The notes beneath the pieces are model-generated. The model had not been told where the DNA came from. It did not search any database and saw only the letters and a program-made list of their open reading frames with translations. A stretch of 27,908 nucleotides of DNA from a candidate division FCPU426 bacterium (GTDB lineage Bacteria > Oederibacteriota > JAAXVQ01 > JAUVAV01). The stretch covers positions 1 to 27,908 of the forward strand of contig DAOWGI010000033.1 in NCBI GenBank assembly GCA_030637655.1, given 5' to 3'. This document shows, piece after piece, positions 4,641 through 27,908 of the stretch. Position 1 is the stretch's first letter, and each line of letters begins with the position of its first letter. Both the position numbers and the translations under genes were made by a program.

Positions 4641-6391
4641 TTCACACCTCGTGGATTCCGGGGAAAGTATTTGGTATGCAAGAGATGACGCGCTTTCTCA
4701 CTGCCCGGATGGGAAAGATATTTTTCATATAATTCTTTGATGTATGGATTGTCATGTGATTTGCGGACCTGTTTTTTCTGGTCAATGGTATACAAGGCCT
4801 GCGCGCGCAGTTTGTGTATTTCTTTGTCCAGAATATGGCGTCCTGCCGGAGGATAGGGTTGACCGCCGCCGCCGATGCAGCCGCCCGGACAGGCCATAAG
4901 TTCAATAAGGTGATATTGTTTCTCGCCGGATTTTACTTTTTCCAGGATCGCGCGGGCATTGGTTAGGCCGTTGGCTACGGCGACATTCAGGGTTTTGCCT
5001 GCTACCTTCAGCGAGGCTTCTTTTAAACCTTCCGCGTTACGGACCTGGGTGAAATTTAAATTTTTAAGAGATTCGCCGGTTAGCTTTTCTACGACTGTCC
5101 GGAGCGCGGCTTCCATAACACCGCCGGTGGCGCCAAAAATATCCGCCGCGCCGGAAGAGAAGCCCAGGGGACTATCAAAATCTTCTTCCGACAGCTTGGT
5201 GAAGTCAATACCATATGCTTTGATCATCCAGATAAGTTCGCGCGTGGTCAAGACCGCGTCTGTGTAAGGAAGTCCGCCGGCCGTGCGGTGTTCCGGACGC
5301 TGGATCTCGAATTTTTTCGCAGTGCACGGCATAATGCCCACCACGTAAATATCCTTGGGATCCAGCGATTTTATTTCCGCGTAATAGGTTTTTAACAACA
5401 CAGAAAGCATGGTCATGGGTGAACTACAACTGGAAGCATGCGGGATTAGTTCCGGAAAAAAGTGCTCCAAATATTTAATCCAGCCCGGAGAACAGGATGT
5501 CAGTAAAGGCAGGTTTTCATTTTTCTCCAATCGGCCGATAAATTCATGCGCTTCTTCCACCACGGTTAAGTCAGCGCCGAAATTGGTATCAAACACAGTA
5601 TCAAAGCCCAAACGCCGCAAGGCCGTTACCGTCTGCAGGGTGGCCGGAGTTCCCGGAGCCAGTCCGAAGCCCTCGCCAATAGCAGCCCGAATGGACGGGG
5701 CGATTTGCGCAATCACATGTTTGCCGGGATCGGCCAAGGCCTGCCAGACTTCATCTGTGGAACGCTGCTCCAGGAAGGCGGCGGTGGGACAAACATTAAT
5801 GCATTGTCCGCAATTGATGCAGACCGAATCCTTAAGCGGTGCCTCAAAAGCCGGGGCAACCACATTTTTTACACCCCGATGCATCTGGCTTAAATTATGT
5901 ACGCCTTGTATTTCCGAACAGACGCGTATGCAGCGATGGCAGAGAATGCATTTTTCCGAATCACGAACCACTGAGAGACTGGAATTCTCAATGGGGAATT
6001 GTTTGCGTTTGCCCTCAAAAAGACGTTCGCGCACACCTAAGGAGTAGGCCAGATTCTGCAATTCGCATTGGCCGTCCCGTTCGCAGGTCTGGCATTCGCG
6101 CGGGTGATTGTCCAAAATGAGTTCGATCAGATCGCGCCGGGCTTGACGGATTTCCGGAGAGTTGGTTCTGATGTTCATGCCTGCTTGGACCTCAGTGGAG
6201 CAGGAGGTCTGAAAGGTCCGGGCGCCTTCTACTTCCACCACACAGATGCGGCAAGCGCCTTCTACCGAGAGATCCGGATGATAGCACAAACGCGGAATGT
6301 GGATGCCGATTGTTTGCGCGGCTTCCATGATTGTGGTTTTTTCCGGTACGCTGATGGGCAGGTTGTCGATGGTTAGCTGAATAGTTTTCAT
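4637..6391 (-). CDS. hydA: [FeFe]-hydrogenase group A catalytic subunit (HydA/HndD-like)
   Basis: H-cluster motifs TSCSPGW, MPCTAKKFE and ELMACPGGCIGGGGQP; N-terminal 2Fe-2S, His-ligated 4Fe-4S (HPRECQTC) and two 4Fe-4S domains; start at ATG 6391 after AGAGG. Confidence 0.96.
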   Translation of the reverse strand: MKTIQLTIDNLPISVPEKTTIMEAAQTIGIHIPRLCYHPDLSVEGACRICVVEVEGARTFQTSCSTEVQAGMNIRTNSPEIRQARRDLIELILDNHPRECQTCERDGQCELQNLAYSLGVRERLFEGKRKQFPIENSSLSVVRDSEKCILCHRCIRVCSEIQGVHNLSQMHRGVKNVVAPAFEAPLKDSVCINCGQCINVCPTAAFLEQRSTDEVWQALADPGKHVIAQIAPSIRAAIGEGFGLAPGTPATLQTVTALRRLGFDTVFDTNFGADLTVVEEAHEFIGRLEKNENLPLLTSCSPGWIKYLEHFFPELIPHASSCSSPMTMLSVLLKTYYAEIKSLDPKDIYVVGIMPCTAKKFEIQRPEHRTAGGLPYTDAVLTTRELIWMIKAYGIDFTKLSEEDFDSPLGFSSGAADIFGATGGVMEAALRTVVEKLTGESLKNLNFTQVRNAEGLKEASLKVAGKTLNVAVANGLTNARAILEKVKSGEKQYHLIELMACPGGCIGGGGQPYPPAGRHILDKEIHKLRAQALYTIDQKKQVRKSHDNPYIKELYEKYLSHPGSEKARHLLHTKYFPRNPRGVK

Positions 6392-6411: not shown

Positions 6412-6548
6412 GGGCGGACAAGTGAATCCGCTCCTACCTGTTTGCGGGCGCACTTGGTGCGCCCCTACAATGATGGGCAGACACGGGGGTCTGCCCCTAC
6501 GGTTATTGATATTTTTACGGTGCGGGCGAACACAAGGTTCGCCCCTAC
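6412..6548 (-). repeat. Tandem array of four GTAG-type REP palindromes
   Basis: Four units at 6412-6437, 6445-6468, 6475-6500 and 6524-6548, each reading GTAGGRGC-hairpin-GCCC on the minus strand with different inner stems. Confidence 0.9.
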
Positions 6549-10417: not shown

Positions 10418-13213
10418 ATGCGAAGAATCATTTTTATCGGACTAGGCTTGTTTTTGCCGGTTTTTTCTCTTTTTGCCTCCGGTCCGGCCACAGCAGTATC
10501 GCTTGAGCAGTATTTTGTGTCTAATAGGGGTTATGACCTTAATGACGGATTAACTGTTGCTACGGCCTTTGGCAGTGTGACCCGAGTCGTTGCCGCCTTG
10601 GATACGCTGGATAATTCAGGAAGCACTCTTAAGGTCCAGGTGATACTGGAGACCGGGACTTACAATACAACCGCTTTAAACCTGAAATATAACAGTCTTG
10701 CGGCTTTGGAATTTTATGGGGATATAACCGGATTCTGGTTTGGTTCAACCGGAGAGATTCAGATACTCAACCACGATTCCAATACCCAGAATTATCTGCT
10801 CCGAATAGAAAATGGTGTAACTCCGATTGTTTTTAAAACCATATATTTTTACACCCTAAATACTAATATGTTGCAGACTATGATTGATATTCAAAATAGC
10901 CGTGATATCACGTTTAACCATTGTAAGATCGTGTACATGTCAACCACAATATCCTATACGCTGCAAAGTCTTGTGAAGATCAGTGGCAGTCAAAATGTTA
11001 ATTTCAACCAAACCCGGATTGGAATTGAGGATAATTCAGGGATGGTAACCACTGCTGTCCGGAATATCTGGGCGAACAACAGTTCGGAGGTGTTGTTTGA
11101 TCATGTGATTATTGATGCCTGGCATCCGACCGGTTTGCCTTTCCCTCCACCCACACCGGATGTCCTGGTTTACCTGACGCAGACTAATAATGCTGTTTTT
11201 GCTGGATGCGATCTGTATTCGCACAATGACGATGCTGTTGTGCATGGTTTTGAGCTGGCGCCGGATTCTGCCAATACCCGGATTGAGAGCTGCGGGGTTT
11301 CACGTACGACGTATGCGGTGCTGATGGACAATTGCTGGACAGCCGGAATTCAGAACAATGTGCTGGCCAATAGCAGTGTGGGTATTTATGCGGACAATGC
11401 CAGGAACTGTCAAATTAGTAACAATCTGATACGTAACCATTGGCAGACCGGAGTACGCCTGATCGATCAATGCCAGGATACAGTATTCTTTAATAATATC
11501 GTGACAAATAACGGCGGATCAACCGGACCGCAGATCGCGTTTTCGATTTCTGATCCTGCGCAGATAGGCGAATCCCTGGCCTGGCAGAGCGGCTATAACT
11601 TAATCTTGCCCAATACCGGGCAGCTGTTTGCCGAACATCAACCCCTGCCGTACGCTACAGCCACACCAGTACCCATACACAATCTCAAACAATGGATCGA
11701 GCAGACCGGGCAGGATGATTTTGGGGGGAGTATCTGTTATCCGGTGGCTTTTGCCACACCAGAGCTTATTGAACCCAACTGGGGTGAAGAAAGTTGGGGA
11801 CATGGGACTGTAAATTTTGTCGGCCGTCCGGCAGCAGCTAAAGATTACTATAATCAACTCCGTCCGTTTTCCGGTGAAACCACCGCGGACCTCGGGTGTA
11901 TCGAACGTTTGGATGCCATTGGTGCGTATCATCACTTTGCCCTGCAACCGGATACAACCGTGGCCGGGATAGGAAACACAATCGCAGTAAAGGTTGAATT
12001 CCGTAATAGCCAAAATCAACAGATCGCCGACCAACCGGATTACCGCTTGTATTTCTATCTGCAAAACGGCAGCCTGCCTTTCAATGTAGAAAGCACGGGT
12101 ATTATCCAATCGCCTGATTATGCGCTGCAAGCTGCCGATTCGGCGGGTTTGTATTATGTGGATGCCAACAGTTTTACCGCAGAGGTGACCTCTTTTCGGC
12201 TGGAAGTGGCGCGGCATGATCTGGATTCCAGGGAGGTTACCTTCCGGCTAAGGGTGATAGAGTGGGAAGATTGGGACAATACAACTTCCCTGGCATATGG
12301 TGGACGGACGGATGATGCTTCAGCGCAACTGCGCTGGATTTCCGGGGCATCGGCACAAAACAGCCGGATTACGGCTTCTACGTCCCCGGTCCTGGCCTCA
12401 GGTGCTGTGGAAGATTATTTTTTGCTCAAAATAACCGCACAGGATTCTGACGGCAATCCGATAGGTGGTTTGAAATTTCCGGACTTTGTGTTTAAAATTA
12501 CCGGTGGAAAGTATGATTTGGATGCTTTGACATTTGCTGAGGATTTGTTTCAGCCGGGAACCTATCAAATCGAATTACGAAGCACGGAGGTAGGAGTCAG
12601 GACCATAGAGGTAACGGTATTGGAGACTGCCTTGCCTGCTTTGCAAGTTATTTTTCAGCCGGGTATTTATGGGGTTGTGACAGCTCAAGATACCGGCCAG
12701 GGCCTGTCGGATATACGAATTACACTCACAGCGCCGGACAACACACAGGTTGGCGCGACAGTTACAGATGCCCAAGGGAGATATCGCATTGCTTTGAGCG
12801 CTGTGGATACAGGGACCTACCAAATAACCGCTGTAGATCCGTCGGAAAGGTATGTGCGTCAGAAGCTGCATATTACCATTCCATCCGATACCTCCGGATA
12901 TCAGGCCATGGTCATGAACAATGACCGGCCGGGCAAGATCGAGGCATATGGTTATCCCAATCCGGCGCAGCGCGGCTCTGCCATAAATATAATGTACAAT
13001 GTTCCACGTTCCGGACATTGTAAGCTGGAAGTCTTTGATATGCGCGGCAGACGTCTGATCACACTGTTGGATGAGCGCATACCGGCCGGGCCAGGAACTG
13101 TGGTCTGGGATGCTTTGAATCGTTTTGATAAACAGCCGGCCCCGGGTACTTATGTAGTAGTGCTGCGTTTGGATTCAGACACCCAGACGTGGAAATTGGT
13201 GATAGCGCCGTAG
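10418..13213 (+). CDS. Secreted right-handed beta-helix protein with Ig-like/invasin and carboxypeptidase-regulatory-like domains and a C-terminal T9SS-type/FlgD-Ig sorting domain
   Basis: AGGAGG RBS; signal peptide; parallel beta-helix repeats (NNLIRN, NNIVTNN); ITAQDSDGNPIGG; TVTDAQGRYRI; C-terminus YPNP...VFDMRGR...WD...PGTYVVVL...KLVI. Confidence 0.8.
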   Translation: MRRIIFIGLGLFLPVFSLFASGPATAVSLEQYFVSNRGYDLNDGLTVATAFGSVTRVVAALDTLDNSGSTLKVQVILETGTYNTTALNLKYNSLAALEFYGDITGFWFGSTGEIQILNHDSNTQNYLLRIENGVTPIVFKTIYFYTLNTNMLQTMIDIQNSRDITFNHCKIVYMSTTISYTLQSLVKISGSQNVNFNQTRIGIEDNSGMVTTAVRNIWANNSSEVLFDHVIIDAWHPTGLPFPPPTPDVLVYLTQTNNAVFAGCDLYSHNDDAVVHGFELAPDSANTRIESCGVSRTTYAVLMDNCWTAGIQNNVLANSSVGIYADNARNCQISNNLIRNHWQTGVRLIDQCQDTVFFNNIVTNNGGSTGPQIAFSISDPAQIGESLAWQSGYNLILPNTGQLFAEHQPLPYATATPVPIHNLKQWIEQTGQDDFGGSICYPVAFATPELIEPNWGEESWGHGTVNFVGRPAAAKDYYNQLRPFSGETTADLGCIERLDAIGAYHHFALQPDTTVAGIGNTIAVKVEFRNSQNQQIADQPDYRLYFYLQNGSLPFNVESTGIIQSPDYALQAADSAGLYYVDANSFTAEVTSFRLEVARHDLDSREVTFRLRVIEWEDWDNTTSLAYGGRTDDASAQLRWISGASAQNSRITASTSPVLASGAVEDYFLLKITAQDSDGNPIGGLKFPDFVFKITGGKYDLDALTFAEDLFQPGTYQIELRSTEVGVRTIEVTVLETALPALQVIFQPGIYGVVTAQDTGQGLSDIRITLTAPDNTQVGATVTDAQGRYRIALSAVDTGTYQITAVDPSERYVRQKLHITIPSDTSGYQAMVMNNDRPGKIEAYGYPNPAQRGSAINIMYNVPRSGHCKLEVFDMRGRRLITLLDERIPAGPGTVVWDALNRFDKQPAPGTYVVVLRLDSDTQTWKLVIAP

Positions 13214-13290
13214 GGGCGCACTGAGTGCGCCCGTTAAACGCCCCTTGGTTTGCCCCTATTCGTTAACGGGCGCACTCAGTGCGCCCCTAC
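13210..13290. repeat. REPIN-like inverted pair of GTAG REPs
   Basis: GTAGGGGCGCACTGAGTGCGCCCGTTAA (13210-13237) and its exact reverse complement (13263-13290); the first copy supplies the TAG stop of the upstream gene. Confidence 0.92.
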
Positions 13291-15331: not shown

Positions 15332-15436
15332 GTAGGGGCGAACCTTGCCTGTGCCCGTCTTTTGGGTATGTTCGCCCGTGAAGGGGCAGCTTCACGGGTC
15401 TGCCCATCGTAGGGGCGCACTGAGTGCGCCCGTTAA
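15332..15436 (+). repeat. Cluster of three GTAG-type REPs
   Basis: Units at 15332-15378 (with a loop insert), about 15378-15405 (degenerate) and 15409-15436 (consensus). Confidence 0.85.
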
Positions 15437-16429: not shown

Positions 16430-16548
16430 CAGAATACAGAATACAGAAGAAGATCAAAACCGTAGGGGCGGATCCACTTGTCCTGAGCGAAGTCGAAGAA
16501 TGTATCCGCCCTTGAAAAAAACCGTAGGGGCGCACTGAGTGCGCCCGT
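16430..16548 (+). repeat. CAGAATA heptamer repeats followed by two GTAG REPs
   Basis: CAGAATACAGAATACAGAA, then a REP at 16462-16511 with a loop insert and a consensus REP at 16524-16548. Confidence 0.85.
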
Positions 16549-21468: not shown

Positions 21469-21783
21469 TTAACGGGCGCACTCAGTGCGCCCCTACGATT
21501 TTTTGATTTTGTGTCTATTCTGACGCCTGGCTTCTGACTTCTTAATTCTGACGCCTGTATTCTCCCTTTGAATTATGCTATAATTTTTCAATATTTTTTA
21601 AAAGGAATTCTGGAATTTCCAGGTAGGGGCGCACCGAGTGCGCCCGAAAACCGGTAGGGGCGGATCCACTTGTCCGCCCGTAAAAAAATCAAACCCGTAG
21701 GGGCGCACTGAGTGCGCCCGTAAACAGGCAGGGCCTTGTCACGCCATAGTTCCACAGGAACGAAGGCGGATGACCGCCCGTAA
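21469..21783. repeat. REP cluster: one minus-strand REP, TTCTG heptamer repeats and 3-4 plus-strand REPs
   Basis: REP at 21469-21496 (-); TTCTGAC repeats at about 21518-21563; REPs at 21623-21646, 21654-21680 and 21697-21721, plus a degenerate unit with an insert at about 21727-21781. Confidence 0.88.
21576..21584 (+). promoter_or_regulatory. Extended -10 element upstream of the large secreted protein
   Basis: TGCTATAAT in an AT-rich context; a transcript from here would carry the REP array as its 5' leader. Confidence 0.5.
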
Positions 21784-21796
21784 AAGGAGATTGATT

Positions 21797-24700
21797 ATGC
21801 GGAAAATAAATATTTTTTTTCAGGCTGTTTCTCTTATTCTGCTGGTTTCAACAACTGTTTACGCAGAAACCTACACAGTTACTAGCAGGGAAGACAGCGG
21901 AGTAAACACCCTGCGCTGGGCTGTACAGCAGGCCAATGCCATGCCTGGTGCGGATTTGATTATTTTTCCTGTAGTTAACTCTATAACTGTCTACTCTCCA
22001 ATACAAATTACAGATAGGGTTGAGCTGTATGGTGCCGGAACCCAAGTGGTTGGTGGGAATAAAACTGAAGATGTTTTTGAATTTATGAGCGGTAGTGATG
22101 GAAGCACTCTATCAGCTATTGCAATAAATGAGGCGGATGTGGCTATTGGAATTTGGTCAGATCATAACCGGATAAAAGGATGTAGAATTGGAAGTAGTTG
22201 GTCGGGAAGTGGTGGTTCAGAAATCGGTTTGTATATTGAGGGAAGTTTTAATGAAATCGGGGGTACTGCGGACTTTGAGGGTAATACTTTGGATGCAAGT
22301 TTTACTTATCATATTAAAGTAGAGGATGGAATTCAAAATAATTTTCAAGCGAACTATATACGCGGTGGATATTTTAATATAGACAATGCTGCAGGATATT
22401 GCTTGGTTGGTGGTGAAAGGACAACCGGTGGTAATGTTTTTGCCGGCACTGAAATAAATATAAATGGAATTGGCGGGAATACTATTTGTGGCAATTATAT
22501 CGGTGTGTATCAGGATCAAAGTTCACATATGGCAACAACTGGTTTGGCGATTACTTCTCCGAGTAATGTAATTGGTTTATCCTTGAATAATTTCGGGAAC
22601 ATCATTTGCGCAATTAATACTTGTATGAATATTCAAAGTTCAAATAATGTGATACAAAATAATTTAATAGGACTGAATTTAAATGATATAGCCTGCAATG
22701 CTGCGAACGCTATTGAAATAACATCTGGAGGCAATAATTTAATTGGTGGCGCAAGGAATGCTTTGCGTTTCGAAAGCAATGTTATTGCTGGTGCGAAAAT
22801 TACTTGTATTGTAGTGGGCGGTTCTGGTGGCAATACGATCTCGGGCAATATAATAGGTTTGGATTCTGACGGTGACACTGCTATGGGAGCTAACGATGGC
22901 ATAGACTTAGTAACGTCTAATAATCTGATTGGAGGTTCCAACGCAAATCTTTCCGATCAAAGAGGGAATATTGTATCAGGTCATAATTTGCGCGGTATTC
23001 AGGTGGCAGGGCATAATAATATGATTTTTGGCAATTACATAGGTACGGACCTTTCCGGCACAACTACAATTGAAAATAATCAAATGAATATATGGATTGC
23101 GGGAAGTACTAACACGCAGATTGGTGGATTGGATCCTGGTTTGCGAAATATTATCTGCGGTAGTGACTATGGAATACGTAGTTATGGTAATTCAACATAT
23201 GTGTATAACAATTGGATAGGATATTACGCAGATCTCTCGTTGGATTCTGACCCTCCAATTACAGGTATTTCATTAGAATGGGGTATAAATAATCAGATTG
23301 GAATGCAAAACCAACCGGCCAGTGGGAATCTTATTCGGGCAGCAGCCAACGGAGTTTATATAGCCGGAGCTGGAACTGATTATAATGCGATTTGTGGCAA
23401 TACTATATGCGCATTTGGCAGTAATGGTATTTTATTAGCAGGTGACGGGGCGAACAACAACAAAATCGCACCTGTTATTATTACGCCGTCAGATGTGGCG
23501 CTTATTCAAGGCACAACCACAGGACCGGATGATTATATTGAAGTCTTTGTCTCCAACCGGGGCGCTGGGGTTTACGGAGGCAGTGTTCGCTTCGTCGGCT
23601 CCACTACCGCGGTTTCCGGGAATTGGTCATTGGTCCCAACCGGGTTGACAGGCGGAGAGTATGTGTGCGCTATTGCAACAGACAGCAGTAATAATTCCTC
23701 CGGATTTTCGTTGAACCAATTAGTGCAGGTGCCAACCCCTACGTACACACCAACACCGGGCAATACTCCTACTTCTACACCCACCCCAACCGCAACCCCG
23801 GTTTTTCAGGCCTTTGTCTACTCCATCTCACCGGAATATAGCCATGCCAAAGCCCAAGTGTCATGCACAGTGCGCGGTGAGAGCTTTTTTACGCCTGTGA
23901 GTGTGAGACTGCAGGGTAATGGGATTGCTGCAAGATATGCCGCTAATGTTGTGCTTCTCAATTCCAAGGTGATTACTTGCACTTTTGATCTGAGCGGGCT
24001 GGCGGGCGGGACATATGCAGTCCGGGTGGATAGTTTTGGCGTTTATGGCGTGCTGAACAATGGGTTGAAAATCATTAATCCCATTGCTTTGCCAATTAAT
24101 TGGGAAGTGTTGGATATGGGTCAGGCCGGAACACACGCTATGGCCAATGATACCAGAGGCATCTATGTCGGAGACGGGGACAATGATGCTCTGCAGGAAG
24201 TCTTTTCCGCCGGGTTGCTCCAAAATATTTTAAAATATGACCTGGACACAACTTGGTCAATCTCCGCCTTGCCGGCCGGGACTATCGGAGAAAGTTATAC
24301 CGGTGTTATTACTTGTGATATGGACAATGACGGTTTGCGCGAGGTGTACGGCACAACGCTGGACCATTATGTGTATCAGTTCAGCGGCGCTAATTTGGCA
24401 GCCAAGACCAATATATCCGGGGATCTGGGATATGAGCAGTATGCTCTGGTTTGTGGTGACGGCAATAATGACCATGCTTTAGAGATATATACAGCAGCCG
24501 GGGATGGCAATGAGGGTATTATCTATCAATTCTCCTATGTTGGCAGTTGGTCCAATACACCCATAGGTTCATGCACAGAAAAAATAGTGGCTATAGCAGT
24601 TGGTGACGGGGACAATGACGGCAGCAACGAGGTCTATGGCGCATGTGAGGACCATAATCTTTATCAATTCAAATACAATGGGACCTCCTGGGCCAAGAGT

Positions 24701-25435
24701 ATTGTGCATACCGGTGAAAACGATGCCAAAGCCGTAGTAATTGGTGATGGTAATCAGGATGGTCAAAATGAGGTATATACTGCCAATCTGGATGGGAATA
24801 TATACCAACTCAAGTGGACTTCAGGTTTTTACTGGAATCCTTTGACCATCACTGCTGCCAATTCCTATGCCATAACAGTCAGTGATATTGATAATAATGC
24901 TACAGATGAGCTCTACTGTGCCGGGACAGACGGGCATGTGTATCAAATGCAGTATTCAGGAGGAGCCTGGAATAGCACGGATTTGGGGACTATTCCAGGC
25001 ACAATCTACAGCCTGGCAGCCGGAGACGGCGACAATGATTATCAGCTTGAGTTGTATGCTCTGGCTGGTGATCACCATGTATACCAAATTAAGGCAAGCC
25101 ACGCTAATCCTACAGCCACGCCCACAGTTACACCGATTAAGAATTTTGATGGAAATATAATCTCCAAAAAGCATATCTATGCTGCGCCTAATCCGGCGCG
25201 GGGCAGTCATGCCAACATTGTGATCTATACCAATCAAGCTGCTGATGTCAGCGGCATACTCTTTACCACCTCAAATCAGGAGGTGCTCTCTTTTAGACGG
25301 CACTATTCAGCCGGCAAGAATGTGGAGCGGATCAATATCAGCAATCTGGCCAATGGCGTATATCTTCTGCTGGTAAAAGCCAAAGCAGGCGGAGTGGAAG
25401 AGCGAGTGATAAAAAAGATAGCGATTGTGAAGTGA
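21797..25435 (+). CDS. Large secreted protein: parallel beta-helix, PT linker, IPT/TIG-like domain, FG-GAP/VCBS-type beta-propeller and T9SS-like C-terminal domain
   Basis: AAGGAG RBS and ATG 21797; signal peptide; YTVTS..DSG..TLRWAV; repeated IGG/GNYIG; PTPTYTPTP; repeated GDGDND...EVY blades; C-terminus APNP...LANGVYLL...KKIAIVK. Confidence 0.85.
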   Translation: MRKINIFFQAVSLILLVSTTVYAETYTVTSREDSGVNTLRWAVQQANAMPGADLIIFPVVNSITVYSPIQITDRVELYGAGTQVVGGNKTEDVFEFMSGSDGSTLSAIAINEADVAIGIWSDHNRIKGCRIGSSWSGSGGSEIGLYIEGSFNEIGGTADFEGNTLDASFTYHIKVEDGIQNNFQANYIRGGYFNIDNAAGYCLVGGERTTGGNVFAGTEININGIGGNTICGNYIGVYQDQSSHMATTGLAITSPSNVIGLSLNNFGNIICAINTCMNIQSSNNVIQNNLIGLNLNDIACNAANAIEITSGGNNLIGGARNALRFESNVIAGAKITCIVVGGSGGNTISGNIIGLDSDGDTAMGANDGIDLVTSNNLIGGSNANLSDQRGNIVSGHNLRGIQVAGHNNMIFGNYIGTDLSGTTTIENNQMNIWIAGSTNTQIGGLDPGLRNIICGSDYGIRSYGNSTYVYNNWIGYYADLSLDSDPPITGISLEWGINNQIGMQNQPASGNLIRAAANGVYIAGAGTDYNAICGNTICAFGSNGILLAGDGANNNKIAPVIITPSDVALIQGTTTGPDDYIEVFVSNRGAGVYGGSVRFVGSTTAVSGNWSLVPTGLTGGEYVCAIATDSSNNSSGFSLNQLVQVPTPTYTPTPGNTPTSTPTPTATPVFQAFVYSISPEYSHAKAQVSCTVRGESFFTPVSVRLQGNGIAARYAANVVLLNSKVITCTFDLSGLAGGTYAVRVDSFGVYGVLNNGLKIINPIALPINWEVLDMGQAGTHAMANDTRGIYVGDGDNDALQEVFSAGLLQNILKYDLDTTWSISALPAGTIGESYTGVITCDMDNDGLREVYGTTLDHYVYQFSGANLAAKTNISGDLGYEQYALVCGDGNNDHALEIYTAAGDGNEGIIYQFSYVGSWSNTPIGSCTEKIVAIAVGDGDNDGSNEVYGACEDHNLYQFKYNGTSWAKSIVHTGENDAKAVVIGDGNQDGQNEVYTANLDGNIYQLKWTSGFYWNPLTITAANSYAITVSDIDNNATDELYCAGTDGHVYQMQYSGGAWNSTDLGTIPGTIYSLAAGDGDNDYQLELYALAGDHHVYQIKASHANPTATPTVTPIKNFDGNIISKKHIYAAPNPARGSHANIVIYTNQAADVSGILFTTSNQEVLSFRRHYSAGKNVERINISNLANGVYLLLVKAKAGGVEERVIKKIAIVK

Positions 25436-25484: not shown

Positions 25485-25541
25485 GTAAGGGCGCACCTGC
25501 TTGTCACGCCGAAGTCAACGACGAAGGCGGAAGTGCGCCCG
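25485..25541 (+). repeat. REP variant with a loop insert
   Basis: GTAAGGGCGCAC...[CTTGTCACGCCGAAGTCAACGACGAAGGCGGA]...GTGCGCCCG. Confidence 0.8.
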
Positions 25542-25665
25542 TGACCCATGGCAACGCCCTGATCACAGTGTCTCGGCAATGAAAAAATATCTCATTTTTC
25601 TCATTTTTTTTGAAAGGATTTTGGCAAAAACCTGTCTGAATATATATCCAACCAATATAGGAGAA

Positions 25666-25692
25666 GCAGGGGCGCATTAAATACGCCCCTGC
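25666..25692. repeat. REP-like hairpin between the SD and the start codon
   Basis: 9-bp stem GCAGGGGCG/CGCCCCTGC between AGGAG (25659-25663) and ATG 25700. Confidence 0.75.
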
Positions 25693-25699
25693 AATCAAG

Positions 25700-27908
25700 A
25701 TGAATATATTCAGCAGGCACGCAAATCGACTTATATCCATAATTCTTTCCATTTTATTGATTCTACCCGTCCAATTTGTTTCCAACGTAGGGGCACTATG
25801 CTTGTCCGACATCGCTTTAGCGAAGTCGGATGCCGTGCCCCTACAAAATAATGTCCAACCCCCAACCCAATTCAGGCAACTAGTCATCTATGTACCGGAT
25901 ATATTTGATTCTACCAGGCAGGTGGAAAAAGCCCTGAGCCGTCTGCGCGCCAAAGGCATAGCGAAAAAAGACATTATCAATCTGGCCCAACATGCTGGAT
26001 TTGATGTCCAACAAGGGCTCAAGACGCAGGCCAAACAATTGGCCGGGATAGTGGATCTGGAATCAGCCAAACGCAATGGTTTGAAAGCCTATCTGGTGGC
26101 CAAAGGCACCGGTGGTTTGGTGGTTCGTTCGTATCTGGCCACTGCCAAGAAACTGCGCTCTGTGGGTGCGCCAATTGAAAATGTTGTAGCAGTAGGTGTG
26201 CCGCATCAGGGCCGGCAGTGGGCCAAGCTGGCCTATGCCATAGCTTGGCCTCTGCCAAAAGTCGGCAGCCGCTCATTGGCTGTTCGTGATTTGGCGCCGG
26301 ATTCTCCCTTTATGCGCGAGCTCAATCAGCATAAGCATAAGCGCGAACACTTGCTGGAAGGTGCCAAGGCTGCCTTAAAAAAGATTGATGATTTCACCTT
26401 CAAAAAAGAGCTGAAGACCAAGCTGGCAGCCATAGATCGGGCGAAAACCGGGGTGCGGGATGAAGTGGAACGCATCCTGTATTTCCCTGAGCGCGTACAA
26501 TTAAGCGATAGGGATAAATCGCGTATACGCGAGATGAAAACCATAGGCCAAGAAATCAATAAAATTATAACCGTAGGGGTCGCCCCCCCTGTCCTGAGCG
26601 GAGCCGAAGGACCTGTCGCCCCTTCTCTTGTACTCTTGCAGAAAACGGCCAATAAAATCAAAAAACAGCAGCAAAAAATAGACCAACGCATTCAACAATA
26701 CGCAGGGGCACGGTGCGCCGTGCCCCTACAAAAATCCTTGGCCAAAATCAACGACCTGTCAAAAACCGTCAGTGCGTCAGCTAGCCAAGTGCAGAAACAG
26801 TTGCAGCAAAAGCTGGAGTCTTCGCAGCTCTATAAAATAAAGGTTGCTTGTTCAGCCGGCTTGACAGATCCCAAAACCAATATGCAAAAACATTTAGCAA
26901 AAATAAGTTCGGCTGTGAGCAATCAGGTGCAAGACCCGGAAATAAATAAGCAGATGGATGCGATTGCAGAGTATGTCAAACAAGTTCAACCGGATTTGGA
27001 AAAAGAGTGGCAAAGATTCACACAAAAAGCTGTAACCGAGCAATTAGAATTAAAGCGCACGCAGGAAAAGTTCGTCAGTACAGCCTTTTTGCAGACAGCC
27101 TGGGACACAATGGATCAAAAAAGAAAGCAGTGGCTGGACACTGTCAAACAATACGCGAATAACAAAGCCCAAGCTCTGCTGGAAATACAATTGGAATCCT
27201 ACCAGATGCAATTGCGGGATCAAGTGAAACAAATGGATGTAAAAGTAAGAGACAAACAAGCAGAACTTTTGCAAAAACTGGATTCTGTCACAGAGAAGTT
27301 AAGCGCGCAGGCAGATATTTTGTTTGCCAATAATCACATAGGTGATGTGAAGCAAAAGGTGAAAGAGCAGTTTTGGGAATATAAAAAAGCCAAACAGACT
27401 TTCTTGGCACAAGCCGAAAAAACCAAACGCGAAGTCTCGGACAAAATATTTCGCAACGAGTATTTTGTGTACTTGAAGCAAGCAGACCGCATGGACCAAG
27501 TGCTTATGGAGGCTGTGGACAAAAAGACGCGGCATCTTCAATACGCGCTCCTGGGTTTGGAAAAGGGTCAGGCAACCAAGGAAATGGAGATGTTCGCGCA
27601 AAGTTCGCGTAAACGCCTAAGCCGGGAAATTGAAAAATCAAAAAAACAAATCGTAGGGGCGGGGTTTACCCCCGCCCGCCAAACAACCGCAGGGGCGGGA
27701 TTTGTTGACCCCAAAAATGTAGGGGCAGGGTTCACCCCTGCCCTTAAAGACTGGGAAGTGCTGCAAGATGTCCGTTATTTATATAAACAGGCTGTAGCGC
27801 TAAAAACTACCTTGCCGCAGCAAAGTATTGCCTTGCAAAAAAGCCTGGCTGCCTGTGAGGTAATCGAACACCTGGAAAAATACGGTGATATAGAACAACA
27901 ATTAAAAA
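25700..27908 (+). CDS. Large putative secreted protein (partial, at least 736 codons): degenerate alpha/beta-hydrolase domain plus long coiled-coil region with in-frame REP insertions
   Basis: Manually translated and open from ATG 25700 to the window end; missing from the ORF track. Signal-like MNIFSRHANRLISIILSILLILP; AYLVAKGTGGLVVRSYL, VVAVGVPHQG and VRDLAPDSPFMRELN; then K/Q/E-rich helices. Confidence 0.85.
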   Translation, partial: MNIFSRHANRLISIILSILLILPVQFVSNVGALCLSDIALAKSDAVPLQNNVQPPTQFRQLVIYVPDIFDSTRQVEKALSRLRAKGIAKKDIINLAQHAGFDVQQGLKTQAKQLAGIVDLESAKRNGLKAYLVAKGTGGLVVRSYLATAKKLRSVGAPIENVVAVGVPHQGRQWAKLAYAIAWPLPKVGSRSLAVRDLAPDSPFMRELNQHKHKREHLLEGAKAALKKIDDFTFKKELKTKLAAIDRAKTGVRDEVERILYFPERVQLSDRDKSRIREMKTIGQEINKIITVGVAPPVLSGAEGPVAPSLVLLQKTANKIKKQQQKIDQRIQQYAGARCAVPLQKSLAKINDLSKTVSASASQVQKQLQQKLESSQLYKIKVACSAGLTDPKTNMQKHLAKISSAVSNQVQDPEINKQMDAIAEYVKQVQPDLEKEWQRFTQKAVTEQLELKRTQEKFVSTAFLQTAWDTMDQKRKQWLDTVKQYANNKAQALLEIQLESYQMQLRDQVKQMDVKVRDKQAELLQKLDSVTEKLSAQADILFANNHIGDVKQKVKEQFWEYKKAKQTFLAQAEKTKREVSDKIFRNEYFVYLKQADRMDQVLMEAVDKKTRHLQYALLGLEKGQATKEMEMFAQSSRKRLSREIEKSKKQIVGAGFTPARQTTAGAGFVDPKNVGAGFTPALKDWEVLQDVRYLYKQAVALKTTLPQQSIALQKSLAACEVIEHLEKYGDIEQQLK

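What the first reader, a model, noticed from the sequence alone, without database searches (positions are those of the whole stretch)
25700..27908. Hidden large ORF carrying six REP palindromes translated in the same frame
Seen: an ORF missing from the track contains REPs at 25787-25844 (VGALCLSDIALAKSDAVPL), 26573-26623 (VGVAPPVLSGAEGPVAP), 26702-26729 (AGARCAVPL) and a triple at 27653-27744 (VGAGFTPAR, AGAGFVDP, VGAGFTPAL). All are on the sense strand in the G(T/C)A GGG G frame, which avoids the TAG in the foot, and none breaks the ORF. Two carry nested inserts. Established: REPs are nearly always extragenic; Rickettsia palindromic elements are the known coding precedent. Inference: selection preserves translation while REPs add Gly/Pro peptides to a coiled-coil protein, a route to protein diversification by selfish repeats.
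Basis: partly seen in the sequence, partly recalled or inferred. Interest (0 to 1): 0.8.

Follow-up and report, generated by a model that had tools for sequence, protein, structure and literature searches.

The report
Mobile REP hairpins translated inside a gene
A real gene for a large secreted rod-shaped protein carries six copies of a small selfish palindromic repeat that are read in frame as short flexible linker peptides, a tidy and unusually dense example of something already described in other bacteria.

Summary
ORF 25700-27907 (736 codons, cut by the contig end) is open and carries six GTAG/GCAG-headed REP units, all in the GTA-GGG-G frame. Four are intact hairpins (REP1, 3, 4, 6). REP2 and REP5 are decayed relics.

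The ORF is a real gene:
- dN/dS is 0.26 against a paralog on contig C111.
- 6 of 6 indels against that paralog are multiples of three, and all lie at or next to REPs.
- Orthologs of 2200-2460 aa occur in other genera.

The protein has a signal-peptide-like N-terminus, a lipase-like alpha/beta fold and a long helical rod. All four REP loci fall in low-confidence, non-helical breaks of the model.

The repeats belong to a genome-wide family of 588 heads, 431 of them intergenic. A RAYT transposase gene is present. Orthologs from REP-poor genomes lack the peptides. REP-rich relatives carry their own in-frame REPs elsewhere, including 39-nt tandem arrays of 6 versus 3 units.

Frame preservation is shown; adaptive diversification is not. 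Rickettsia is not the only precedent: in-frame intragenic GTAG REPs were catalogued by Di Nocera et al. 2013 (PMC3733652). This scan has also noted in-frame REPs elsewhere in this genome (mutL, thrS).

Verdict: a new, unusually dense member of a known kind.

The parts
25659..25665 (+). Shine-Dalgarno-like AGGAGAA, 36 nt upstream of the ATG in linear sequence
   Evidence: Read directly from the sequence. The same AGGAGA-hairpin-CAATCAA(G/A)ATG layout appears upstream of the paralogs on C111 and C6.
25666..25692 (+). REP-like hairpin (GCAG...CTGC) between the SD-like motif and the start codon
   Evidence: Arms are 92% complementary. Folding gives -18.0 kcal/mol, z -4.77.
25700..27907 (+). 5' part (736 codons) of a gene for a protein of about 2200-2460 aa, cut by the contig end
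   Evidence: ORF listed. Homologs. dN/dS 0.255 against paralog C111. 6 of 6 indels are multiples of 3.
25700..25786 (+). Signal-peptide-like N-terminus (basic stretch followed by a hydrophobic helix, aa 1-29)
   Evidence: Model helix 3-21. The hydrophobic stretch is conserved in all homologs. The signal-peptide reading is inference; no predictor was run.
25787..25844 (+). REP1: 58-nt composite double-foot REP (GTAGGGGCAC...GTGCCCCTAC with an inner hairpin), read as VGALCLSDIALAKSDAVPL (aa 30-48)
   Evidence: Arms found. -37.5 kcal/mol, z -7.0. Ten copies of the composite in the genome. All four paralogs have a REP at this site, in different variants.
25874..26389 (+). Lipase-like alpha/beta-hydrolase-fold domain (about aa 59-230) with an invariant K-G-(T/S)-G-G turn
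   Evidence: Beta-alpha elements in the model. Foldseek matches PlaB 6zth at E 2.7e-4, plus Burkholderia and Bacillus lipases. Weak Pfam DUF7379 hit, E 0.0025, below cut-off. Invariant K135 G136 G138 G139.
26573..26623 (+). REP2: decayed composite REP (head GTAGGGGT, inner unit GTCCTGAGCGGAGCCGAAGGAC), read as VGVAPPVLSGAEGPVAP (aa 292-308)
   Evidence: Sequence. The fold is no better than shuffles, z +0.69. The inner unit recurs in REPs at C27:16480 and C90:22878. A public-run contig of 328 nt with no differences covers 26406-26733.
26702..26729 (+). REP3: 28-nt double-foot REP (GCAG head on +, GTAG head on -), read as AGARCAVPL (aa 335-343)
   Evidence: Perfect 10-bp stem. -21.2 kcal/mol, z -3.7. 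Shared with C111.
27653..27678 (+). REP4: single-foot GTAG REP, read as VGAGFTPAR (aa 652-660)
   Evidence: -19.2 kcal/mol, z -3.3. The identical 25-mer recurs in C111 in the other frame.
27689..27712 (+). REP5: decayed REP (GCAG head, 3' arm lost), read as AGAGFVDP (aa 664-671)
   Evidence: z -0.58. C111 keeps a full hairpin here, and the window lacks 15 nt of it.
27719..27744 (+). REP6: single-foot GTAG REP, read as VGAGFTPAL (aa 674-682)
   Evidence: -18.0 kcal/mol, z -3.4. It is followed in the window by a 96-nt in-frame deletion relative to C111.

Best explanation
The ORF is the first third of a real, translated gene. It encodes a large, probably secreted protein with three parts: a signal-peptide-like N-terminus, a lipase-like alpha/beta-fold domain whose usual nucleophile position seems to be glycine, and a very long alpha-helical rod.

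GTAG-type REP elements are the small hairpin repeats associated with RAYT (TnpA-REP) tyrosine transposases. They are abundant between the genes of this genome and have lodged at four places in this gene. The ribosome reads them through as 8-19-residue Gly/Ala/Pro-rich peptides.

They persist because three conditions are met:
- They are in one of the two stop-free sense frames.
- Every associated length change is a multiple of three.
- They sit in non-helical linkers, where extra residues do little harm.

Once present, they act as hot spots for in-frame insertions, deletions and replacement by other REP variants, so paralogs and orthologs differ mainly at these sites.

Shown: the gene is real and under purifying selection; the repeats belong to the family; the frame is kept; the indels cluster at REPs. 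Inferred: mobilisation by the RAYT, insertion polarity at some sites, translation itself, and near-neutrality of the peptides.
For: Gene reality:
- dN/dS is 0.255 over 626 non-REP codons against paralog C111:15398-.
- 6 of 6 indels against that paralog (6, 21, 15, 96, 30 and 111 nt) are multiples of 3, and each lies in or within about 10 nt of a REP.
- Homologs at 34-45% identity sit in open frames of 2234-2459 aa in 6 other genomes. P0002 is 90% identical and P0001 74-86% identical.

REP identity:
- GTAGGGGC occurs 616 times in the 3.28-Mb genome.
- The strict census finds 588 heads: 431 intergenic, 40 partial, 51 shallow and 66 deep in ORFs.
- One RAYT passes the NCBIfam REP_Tyr_transpos cut-off (84.6 against 80). 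A second scores 63.4.
- REP1 is one of 10 copies of a 58-nt composite.

Polarity:
- Pattern counts against the control are 236/10, 343/5 and 113/12 in G001, G007 and G003. They are only 20/8 in G009 and 4/16 in G011.
- Orthologs in G011, G009 and G006 carry no bona fide REP (the whole-genome REP content of G006 was not counted) and lack the peptides.
- G001 and G007 lack them at the window's sites but have their own frame-0 arrays elsewhere, with 3 and 6 units of 39 nt.
- G003 has a REP at the post-signal site in frame 1.

Linker location: all four REP loci fall within low-pLDDT, non-helical segments of the model (22-58, 287-314, 327-351, 655-685).

Independent support for the architecture: P0002 has the same REP4-6 peptides, and a 328-nt run contig spans 26406-26733 with no differences.
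Against: - There is no transcript or peptide evidence.
- Against G001 and G007, REP3 and the REP4-6 block replace stretches of similar length and are not net insertions. The sites are variable linkers where alignment is weak, so 'insertion' is an inference there.
- The two RAYT-like genes are not closely flanked by GTAGGG REPs. The nearest to the first lies about 600 nt away, and there are none in the 3.3-kb locus around the second.
- REP3 and REP6 are sequence variants found nowhere else in the assembly, yet keep perfect stems. That could hint at selection on the hairpin rather than plain neutrality.
- Low pLDDT at the REP peptides may partly reflect an 11-row alignment in which those columns have no homologs.
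- The paralog on C111 has an in-frame TAA, so members of this family can decay.
- The C-terminal two thirds of the gene is not in the assembly.
Confidence: 0.85

Rival explanations
1. Adaptive use. The REP-encoded Gly/Ala/Pro peptides would be selected as hinges, or as a source of length and sequence variation in a surface or secreted rod protein. The repeats would then be a diversification device and not merely tolerated passengers.
For: - REP loci are where paralogs and orthologs differ: 6 of 6 indels lie there.
- Four different REP variants occupy the post-signal site in four paralogs.
- The in-frame 39-nt arrays have 6 units in G007 and 3 in G001.
- In ORFs of at least 1500 aa, 28 of 28 sense-oriented heads in 8 of 8 genes are in frame 0. 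Intergenic REPs are open about equally in frame 0 (0.86) and frame 1 (0.89).
- The family was colonised separately in three lineages.
Against: - dN/dS in REP zones is 0.64 on 63 codons. This is relaxed constraint, not positive selection.
- Two of the six units are simply decaying.
- Across all host ORFs the frame bias is not significant at the gene level: 12 against 7 genes, p 0.36.
- Elements within a gene or among paralogs are not independent.
- Hot-spot behaviour is expected of any repeat through slippage and recombination, with no benefit required.
Confidence: 0.08
2. Function at the nucleic-acid level. The intragenic hairpins would be kept because they act in the long mRNA or in the DNA. 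Possible roles are barriers to 3'-5' exonucleases, translation pauses at domain boundaries, or protein-binding sites. The peptides would be a by-product.
For: - Stable hairpins of -18 to -37.5 kcal/mol persist in the coding sequence.
- REP3 and REP6 are private variants with perfect stems.
- REP density rises with ORF length: 1.12, 1.65 and 7.39 per 100 kb for ORFs under 500, 500-1499 and at least 1500 aa.
- A REP hairpin sits between the SD-like motif and the ATG in three paralogs.
- mRNA stabilisation by REPs is an established idea, cited in PMC3733652 (passages).
Against: - REP2 and REP5 have lost their stems without loss of the ORF.
- The C111 copies of REP3 and REP6 carry stem mismatches.
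- The enrichment in giant ORFs rests largely on two genes, C8 and C82, and is equally explained by their having more tolerant linker sequence.
- No RNA data are available.
Confidence: 0.05
3. The ORF is not a functioning gene. It would be a decaying pseudogene, or a chance or assembly-made open frame across REP-rich DNA.
For: - The gene is truncated by the contig end, which itself falls at a REP copy.
- The paralog on C111 has an in-frame TAA.
- The only Pfam hit is below its cut-off.
Against: - dN/dS is 0.255.
- All 6 indels are in frame.
- Conserved orthologs of more than 2200 aa are found in 6 genomes.
- Independent assemblies give the same architecture.
- The N-terminal domain is a confident lipase-like fold.
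Confidence: 0.02

Closest known systems
Intragenic GTAG-tagged REPs (Di Nocera, De Gregorio & Rocco 2013, BMC Genomics 14:522, PMC3733652)
   Same: Both are short GTAG-headed GC-rich hairpins. Both are mostly intergenic, with a minority lying wholly inside ORFs and read in frame as 7-30-residue, often V-G/A-initiated, peptides such as VGPALAAG, VAGVADPG... and VGAGLPA. Singles, dimers and clusters all occur. The authors also suggest that they sit in flexible linkers (passages and Additional file 3 part 1).
   Different: The host here is an uncultured bacterium from cold-seep metagenomes. A single gene carries six units in 2.2 kb, a density at or above the intergenic average. The case includes composite (nested) units, and the hosts are mainly giant, domain-poor proteins and not housekeeping enzymes. 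I did not see any analysis of reading-frame bias in the passages I read.
Double-foot REPs and in-frame REP insertions in tnpA-REP genes, subclass 2.4 (Quentin et al. 2018, PMC6006769)
   Same: REP1 and REP3 have a 5' GT[AG]G-type head and its reverse complement at the 3' end, which is that paper's 'double foot'. That paper also reports REP insertions that do not disrupt a reading frame (passages).
   Different: The insertions reported there lie in the transposase gene itself. Here the host is an unrelated structural or secreted protein. REP4 and REP6 are single-foot. I could not assign this genome's RAYTs to subclass 2.4 (motifs compared by eye only).
Rickettsia palindromic elements (RPE; Ogata et al. 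2000, cited in PMC3184786 and PMC3733652)
   Same: Both are selfish palindromic repeats inserted in frame in genes that stay functional, adding peptide segments.
   Different: RPEs are about 105-146 nt (table in PMC3184786), against 24-58 nt here. They lack the GTAG head and RAYT link. According to PMC3733652, the short intragenic R. conorii repeats belong to the CGTC class. The present elements work like RPEs but are not members.
Lipase-like alpha/beta hydrolases (e.g. Legionella PlaB 6zth, Burkholderia and Bacillus lipases)
   Same: The N-terminal domain of the host protein has a matching fold (Foldseek E 2.7e-4 to 5.6e-2, prob 1.00).
   Different: Identity is 15-24%. The strand-turn-helix where lipases carry the nucleophile reads K-G-(T/S)-G-G and is invariant in 11 homologs. 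The canonical small-x-Ser-x-small motif is recalled, not tested. The domain is followed by a helical rod of more than 2000 aa.

Membership tests
GTAG-type REP (RAYT/TnpA-REP-associated repetitive extragenic palindrome) | 5' GTAG (GT[AG]G-like) tetranucleotide next to the stem | tested here: met
   Four of six units start with GTAG (REP1, 2, 4, 6). REP3 has GTAG on the minus strand and GCAG on the plus strand. REP5 has GCAG.
GTAG-type REP (RAYT/TnpA-REP-associated repetitive extragenic palindrome) | Short (about 20-40 nt) GC-rich imperfect palindrome forming a stable hairpin | tested here: met
   REP1, 3, 4 and 6 have z -3.3 to -7.0. REP2 and REP5 fail (z +0.69 and -0.58) and are relics. REP1 and REP2 are longer composites (58 and 51 nt).
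GTAG-type REP (RAYT/TnpA-REP-associated repetitive extragenic palindrome) | High copy number, predominantly intergenic | tested here: met
   588 strict heads, 431 of them intergenic. That is 101 per 100 kb of intergenic DNA against 1.1-7.4 per 100 kb inside ORFs (using my own crude ORF map).
GTAG-type REP (RAYT/TnpA-REP-associated repetitive extragenic palindrome) | A RAYT (REP-associated tyrosine transposase) gene in the same genome | tested here: met
   C87:11898-12236(-) matches PF01797 at 69.5 bits. Its 214-aa ORF scores 84.6 against NCBIfam NF047646 (cut-off 80). A second gene on C82 scores 63.4, below the cut-off.
GTAG-type REP (RAYT/TnpA-REP-associated repetitive extragenic palindrome) | RAYT gene flanked by its cognate REPs (REPtron) | tested here: not met
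   In L001 the nearest GTAGGG heads lie about 600 nt from the RAYT ORF. L002 has none in 3.3 kb. Only the GTAGGG head was searched, so other head variants were not excluded.
GTAG-type REP (RAYT/TnpA-REP-associated repetitive extragenic palindrome) | Mobilisation or cleavage by the RAYT | not testable with these tools
   This needs biochemistry or population data. Only indirect signs were seen: identical copies at many loci and variant turnover at fixed sites.
Double-foot REP (TnpA-REP subclass 2.4 of Quentin et al. 2018) | 5' GT[AG]G together with 3' C[TC]AC on one element | tested here: met
   REP1 reads GTAGGGGCAC...GTGCCCCTAC. REP3 reads GCAG...CTAC, which is GTAG...CTGC on the minus strand. 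REP4 and REP6 are single-foot.
Double-foot REP (TnpA-REP subclass 2.4 of Quentin et al. 2018) | Cognate transposase with the subclass 2.4 motifs (NH[IFV]H, WQ, YIxNNP, as in the table passage) | tested here: inconclusive
   By eye, the C87 ORF shows NHFH and YIDRNP, and the C82 ORF shows NHIH and YIHLNP. The match is partial and no phylogeny was made.
Rickettsia palindromic elements (RPE) | Element of about 105-146 nt without a GTAG tag | tested here: not met
   The units here are 24-58 nt and GTAG-tagged. The RPE size comes from the table in PMC3184786.
Alpha/beta-hydrolase lipases (host protein N-terminal domain) | Alpha/beta-hydrolase fold | tested here: met
   Foldseek matches PlaB 6zth at E 2.7e-4 and several bacterial lipases at prob 1.00 over about 130-190 columns. 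The model has pLDDT of about 72-84 over aa 61-150.
Alpha/beta-hydrolase lipases (host protein N-terminal domain) | Nucleophile serine in the strand-turn-helix elbow, with the Asp/His triad | tested here: inconclusive
   The turn after strand 130-135 reads A-K-G-T-G-G, with K135, G136, G138 and G139 invariant. There is no Ser at the expected place if aligned to the recalled A-H-S-x-G-G motif. No residue-level structural alignment was inspected.

The most novel reading that the evidence does not exclude
REP hairpins are not just tolerated in this genome's giant, rod-like or repeat-rich protein genes. They are retained there by selection, either as in-frame 'VGA...P' hinge or linker modules whose copy number tunes protein length, or as structural punctuation of very long mRNAs. 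The observations that fit are: arrays stepping by 13 codons (6 against 3 units between two related species); the exclusive use of frame 0 in all 8 host genes of at least 1500 aa; private REP variants with perfect stems; and a REP hairpin bridging the SD-like motif and the start codon in three paralogs.
Probability: 0.12. Interest if true: 0.65.

Novelty: new member of a known kind. Interest (0 to 1): 0.35.

Why it matters
This case shows, with within-genome paralogs and cross-genus orthologs, how a RAYT-type REP family can remodel a protein-coding gene without killing it. Every length change is in frame. The changes sit in linkers and cluster at the repeats. Different lineages of the same protein family have been colonised independently.

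There are practical consequences. Such repeats break short-read assemblies inside genes: this contig ends at one. They seed spurious similarity between unrelated proteins: the REP1 peptide gave weak hits on five other contigs. They can also hide real genes from annotation.

Conceptually it adds a dense example from an uncultured lineage to a phenomenon described in 2000 and 2013. It does not open a new class.

Tried and rejected
- Expression: the look-up of sequencing runs listed no RNA holder, only DNA contigs of cold-seep and marine-sediment metagenomes. Nothing can be said about expression.
- Read laying on 4 runs gave only short contigs that fragment at the REPs. They did not yield REP presence/absence alleles. 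The one 'skip' joint (26579 to 26704, with 13 other letters between) is simply the C111-type paralog.
- Extending the contig: no other contig overlaps the window end. tblastn with full-length orthologs found no C-terminal part of the gene anywhere in the assembly. C82's REP-rich 5'-open ORF is not the missing part.
- Taxonomy: the search for related loci in genome contigs returned only 'uncultured bacterium' titles. I did not name a phylum. An Omnitrophota guess based on the giant genes was dropped as untested.
- The literature search for REPs together with giant genes and Omnitrophota listed no paper holding all three terms among the 10 shown.
- My relaxed hairpin census produced many false positives (long-loop GCAGGG hits). 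It was replaced by the strict census.
- TRF found no DNA-level tandem repeat in the C8 giant ORF.
- Rejected idea: that the REP peptides are native conserved coding motifs. The same sequences abound between genes, and orthologs in REP-poor genomes lack them.
- Rejected claim: 'clean insertions' for all six units. Only the differences among close paralogs are clean.
Full report
**What is there**

The window is an entire 27,908-bp contig (C27) of a 120-contig, 3.28-Mb, roughly 45% GC metagenome-assembled genome. An ATG-started frame runs from 25700 to the last base with no stop, giving 736 codons.

The word GYAGGGGY occurs 28 times in the window against 2.96 expected from shuffles, with 0 of 100 shuffles reaching 28. 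Eleven of those hits lie between 25666 and 27741.

All are therefore read GTA/GCA-GGG-G.., and the quoted peptides are exact.

Folding separates them into two groups:
- REP1 (-37.5 kcal/mol, z -7.0), REP3 (z -3.7), REP4 (z -3.3) and REP6 (z -3.4) are intact hairpins.
- REP2 (z +0.69) and REP5 (z -0.58) fold no better than shuffled sequence and are decayed relics.

**The repeats are a genome-wide REP family**

The canonical unit is GTAG followed by a GGGCNNNN / NNNNGCCC stem with a 3-8-nt loop, 23-26 nt in all. Some copies carry the reverse-complement foot CTAC as well, the 'double foot' form. REP1 and REP3 are of this kind.

GTAGGGGC occurs 616 times in the genome.

A strict census found 588 heads (GTAGGG head, at least 7.5 of 8 stem pairs, loop 3-8). 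Of these, 431 are intergenic, 40 overlap an ORF end, 51 are shallow in an ORF and 66 are deep in an ORF. Deep means at least 100 codons from the first start and at least 20 from the stop.

This census has three caveats:
- The ORF map is my own crude longest-ORF map, which% of the genome coding.
- Both heads of a double-foot unit are counted.
- An earlier relaxed census was discarded for false positives.

Density is 101 heads per 100 kb of intergenic DNA. Inside ORFs it is 1.12, 1.65 and 7.39 per 100 kb for ORFs under 500, 500-1499 and at least 1500 aa. The finding's gene has six units in 2.2 kb, three of them strict heads. That makes it as REP-dense as intergenic DNA.

The 'nested inserts' are real, but they are family variants:
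- REP1 is one of 10 genomic copies of a 58-nt composite.
- REP2's inner unit recurs inside GTAG REPs at C27:16480 and C90:22878.

The genome encodes a RAYT. A 214-aa ORF on C87 passes the NCBIfam REP-associated tyrosine transposase cut-off (84.6 against 80). A second gene on C82 scores 63.4. Neither is closely flanked by GTAGGG heads.

**The ORF is a real gene**

A word-indexed search of public proteins found five relatives:
- P0001: 779 aa, 74-86% identical.
- P0002: 1106 aa, 90% identical over the overlap, and continuing well past the window end.
- P0003, P0004 and P0005: three proteins at 35-40% identity.

Whole-genome search of 40 relatives found homologs in 7 of them. I fetched the loci of six: G007, G001, G003, G011, G009 and G006. 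In these the frames are 2234-2459 codons long. The window therefore holds about the first third of the gene.

The same MAG holds paralogs on C111 (about 88% nucleotide identity), at the end of C6 and at the start of C36.

Against C111 the comparison gives:
- dN/dS 0.255 over 626 non-REP codons.
- dN/dS 0.64 over the 63 codons of the REP zones.
- An alignment made without regard to codons has six gaps of 6, 21, 15, 96, 30 and 111 nt. All are multiples of three, and all lie inside or within about 10 nt of a REP.

**What the protein looks like**

An AlphaFold2 model built from an 11-row alignment has mean pLDDT 63.4. It shows:
- an N-terminal hydrophobic helix (aa 3-21) after a basic stretch, which looks like a signal peptide (inference; no predictor was run);
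- a beta-alpha domain at about aa 59-230;
- helices up to 98 residues long thereafter.

Foldseek matches the domain to bacterial lipases and to Legionella PlaB (E 2.7e-4). Pfam gives only a sub-threshold DUF7379 hit. The turn where lipases carry their nucleophile reads K-G-(T/S)-G-G and is invariant. Compared with the recalled lipase motif, the serine seems replaced by glycine, so the domain may not be a conventional hydrolase.

All four REP loci (aa 30-48, 292-308, 335-343, 652-682) lie within low-confidence, non-helical segments (22-58, 287-314, 327-351, 655-685). The caveat is that these columns have few homologs in the alignment.

**Are the REPs insertions?**

The same REP pattern is abundant in some relatives and scarce in others (pattern count against control):

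| Genome | Pattern / control |
|---|---|
| G001 | 236 / 10 |
| G007 | 343 / 5 |
| G003 | 113 / 12 |
| G009 | 20 / 8 |
| G011 | 4 / 16 |

Orthologs in G011, G009 and G006 contain no bona fide REP and lack the peptides. The whole-genome REP content of G006 was not counted.

G001 and G007 lack REPs at the window's sites but carry their own frame-0 tandem arrays near codon 1950. The period is 39 nt (13 codons), with three units in G001 and six in G007. G003 has a REP at the post-signal-peptide site, read in frame 1. The family has therefore been colonised independently at different places.

Polarity is less tidy than 'clean insertions'. Against G001 and G007, REP3 and the REP4-6 block occupy stretches of similar length in poorly conserved linkers.

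The clean events are among the close paralogs:
- The 30-nt inner hairpin of REP1 is present in C27 and C36 and absent in C111 and C6.
- C111 has a deletion running from REP2 to REP3.
- There are 21- and 15-nt differences inside REP4 and REP5.
- The window and P0002 have a 96-nt deletion just after REP6.

All four paralogs have a REP at the REP1 site, but in four different variants. C111's REP4 is identical to 11 other genomic copies, whereas the window's REP3 and REP6 are unique variants with perfect stems. REP sites therefore turn over.

**Frame**

Within the window all six units are in frame 0. This is not a family rule. Just beyond the window end, C111, P0001 and P0002 read REPs in frame 1 (NRRGGV...). 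Run contigs show that such a copy also follows the window's last base, which explains why the contig ends there.

Genome-wide counts:
- Deep sense-oriented heads split 34 : 9 : 0 over frames 0 : 1 : 2, and frame 2 contains the TAG.
- Intergenic REPs are stop-free in frames 0 and 1 about equally (0.86 and 0.89).
- The element-level bias is nominally strong (binomial p about 9e-5).
- At the gene level it is 12 against 7 (p 0.36).
- In the eight hosts of at least 1500 aa, all 28 sense heads are in frame 0.
- Elements within a gene or among paralogs are not independent.

**Comparison with what is known**

In-frame intragenic GTAG REPs are already documented. Di Nocera et al. 2013 (PMC3733652; abstract, passages and part 1 of Additional file 3 read) list about 70 in Opitutus terrae alone, and others in Pseudomonas, Citrobacter and Stenotrophomonas. 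The peptides there include VGPALAAG, VAGVADPG... and VGAGLPA. The authors already suggest a location in flexible linkers.

Quentin et al. 2018 (PMC6006769, passages) define double-foot REPs and report REP insertions that keep the tnpA-REP frame open. Delihas 2011 (PMC3184786, passages) reviews repeats fused in frame, including RPEs of about 105-146 nt.

Earlier notes of this scan report in-frame REPs in mutL and at the end of thrS of this same genome. I did not re-test those.

The present case is therefore a new, very dense member of a known kind. It works like RPEs but is not one.

**Verdict**

- Best explanation: tolerated read-through of RAYT-type REPs in linkers of a real secreted lipase-fold-plus-rod protein, with the REP sites acting as in-frame indel hot spots (confidence 0.85).
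- Interest 0.35.

Noticed in passing
window 25659-25702; also C111:15300-15400 and C6:14650-14770: A REP-type hairpin (27 nt in the window, longer composites in the paralogs) sits exactly between an AGGAGA Shine-Dalgarno-like motif and CAATCAA(G/A)ATG. The linear SD-to-ATG distance is 36 nt, but only about 9 nt if the hairpin folds. The layout is shared by three paralogs.
   Followed up: partly
G000 C111:17735-17737 (L022): The paralog has an in-frame TAA where P0002 has Gln. The frame then stays open and conserved for about 188 more codons, up to the contig end. The public protein P0001 (96% identical) ends at the same codon. This is either a recent nonsense mutation or a split gene.
   Followed up: partly
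G000 C8:2-25597 (-) (L020, L021): A giant open frame of at least 8532 codons has no Pfam hit at E<=0.001. It contains many YDxxGRL-like repeats (the resemblance to YD/RHS repeats is recalled, not tested) and 16 frame-0 REP heads. Five REPs recur at a spacing of about 282 nt (94 aa), each a different variant, while the flanking protein sequence is barely conserved.
   Followed up: partly
G000 C82:2-5038 (+) (L019) and C82:7650-8669: A 5'-open 1679-codon ORF carries 8 in-frame REPs. One is a composite, and there is a 42-nt-period pair. It has a borderline Pfam Ntox10 hit (26.7 bits against a cut-off of 26.8). A RAYT-like gene lies 2.6 kb downstream.
   Followed up: no
L013 (G007) ORF nt 5950-6170; L014 (G001) ORF nt 5800-5903: Orthologs in two species of another genus carry tandem, same-orientation REP arrays with a 39-nt period, read as (VGADPRVRPGSSN)n. 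G007 has six units and G001 has three. This is an in-frame copy-number difference made of REPs.
   Followed up: partly
window end 27908 and 27647-27680: Public-run contigs continue past the last base for 27 nt and then run into a copy of REP4. The contig break is therefore caused by a REP repeated within the same gene. Depth in the REP bins is 10-100 times that of the flanks, because the repeats are shared across the community.
   Followed up: yes
whole genome G000: At least two further GTAG-headed hairpin families exist: GTAGGGAACGGTCGCGACCGTTCC (66 identical intergenic copies) and one containing GTAGAGACGCGAT (about 140 hits of its 10-mers). The first also occurs in frame, as VGNGRDRS in C82 and VGNGRNRR in P0002.
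   Followed up: no
window 25486-25545 and 21474-21719, 6446-6548, 13210-13290, 15332-15431, 16462-16546: Clusters of two to three REPs, some composite, fill most intergenic gaps of the contig. One is a large inverted pair at 13210-13290. Another is a triple just upstream of the 1221-aa ORF at 21770-25435.
   Followed up: no
window aa 130-141 (nt 26087-26122): The lipase-like domain has K-G-(T/S)-G-G, invariant in 11 homologs, at the strand-turn-helix where a nucleophile serine would be expected. The domain may be a pseudo-enzyme or may use a shifted nucleophile.
   Followed up: partly
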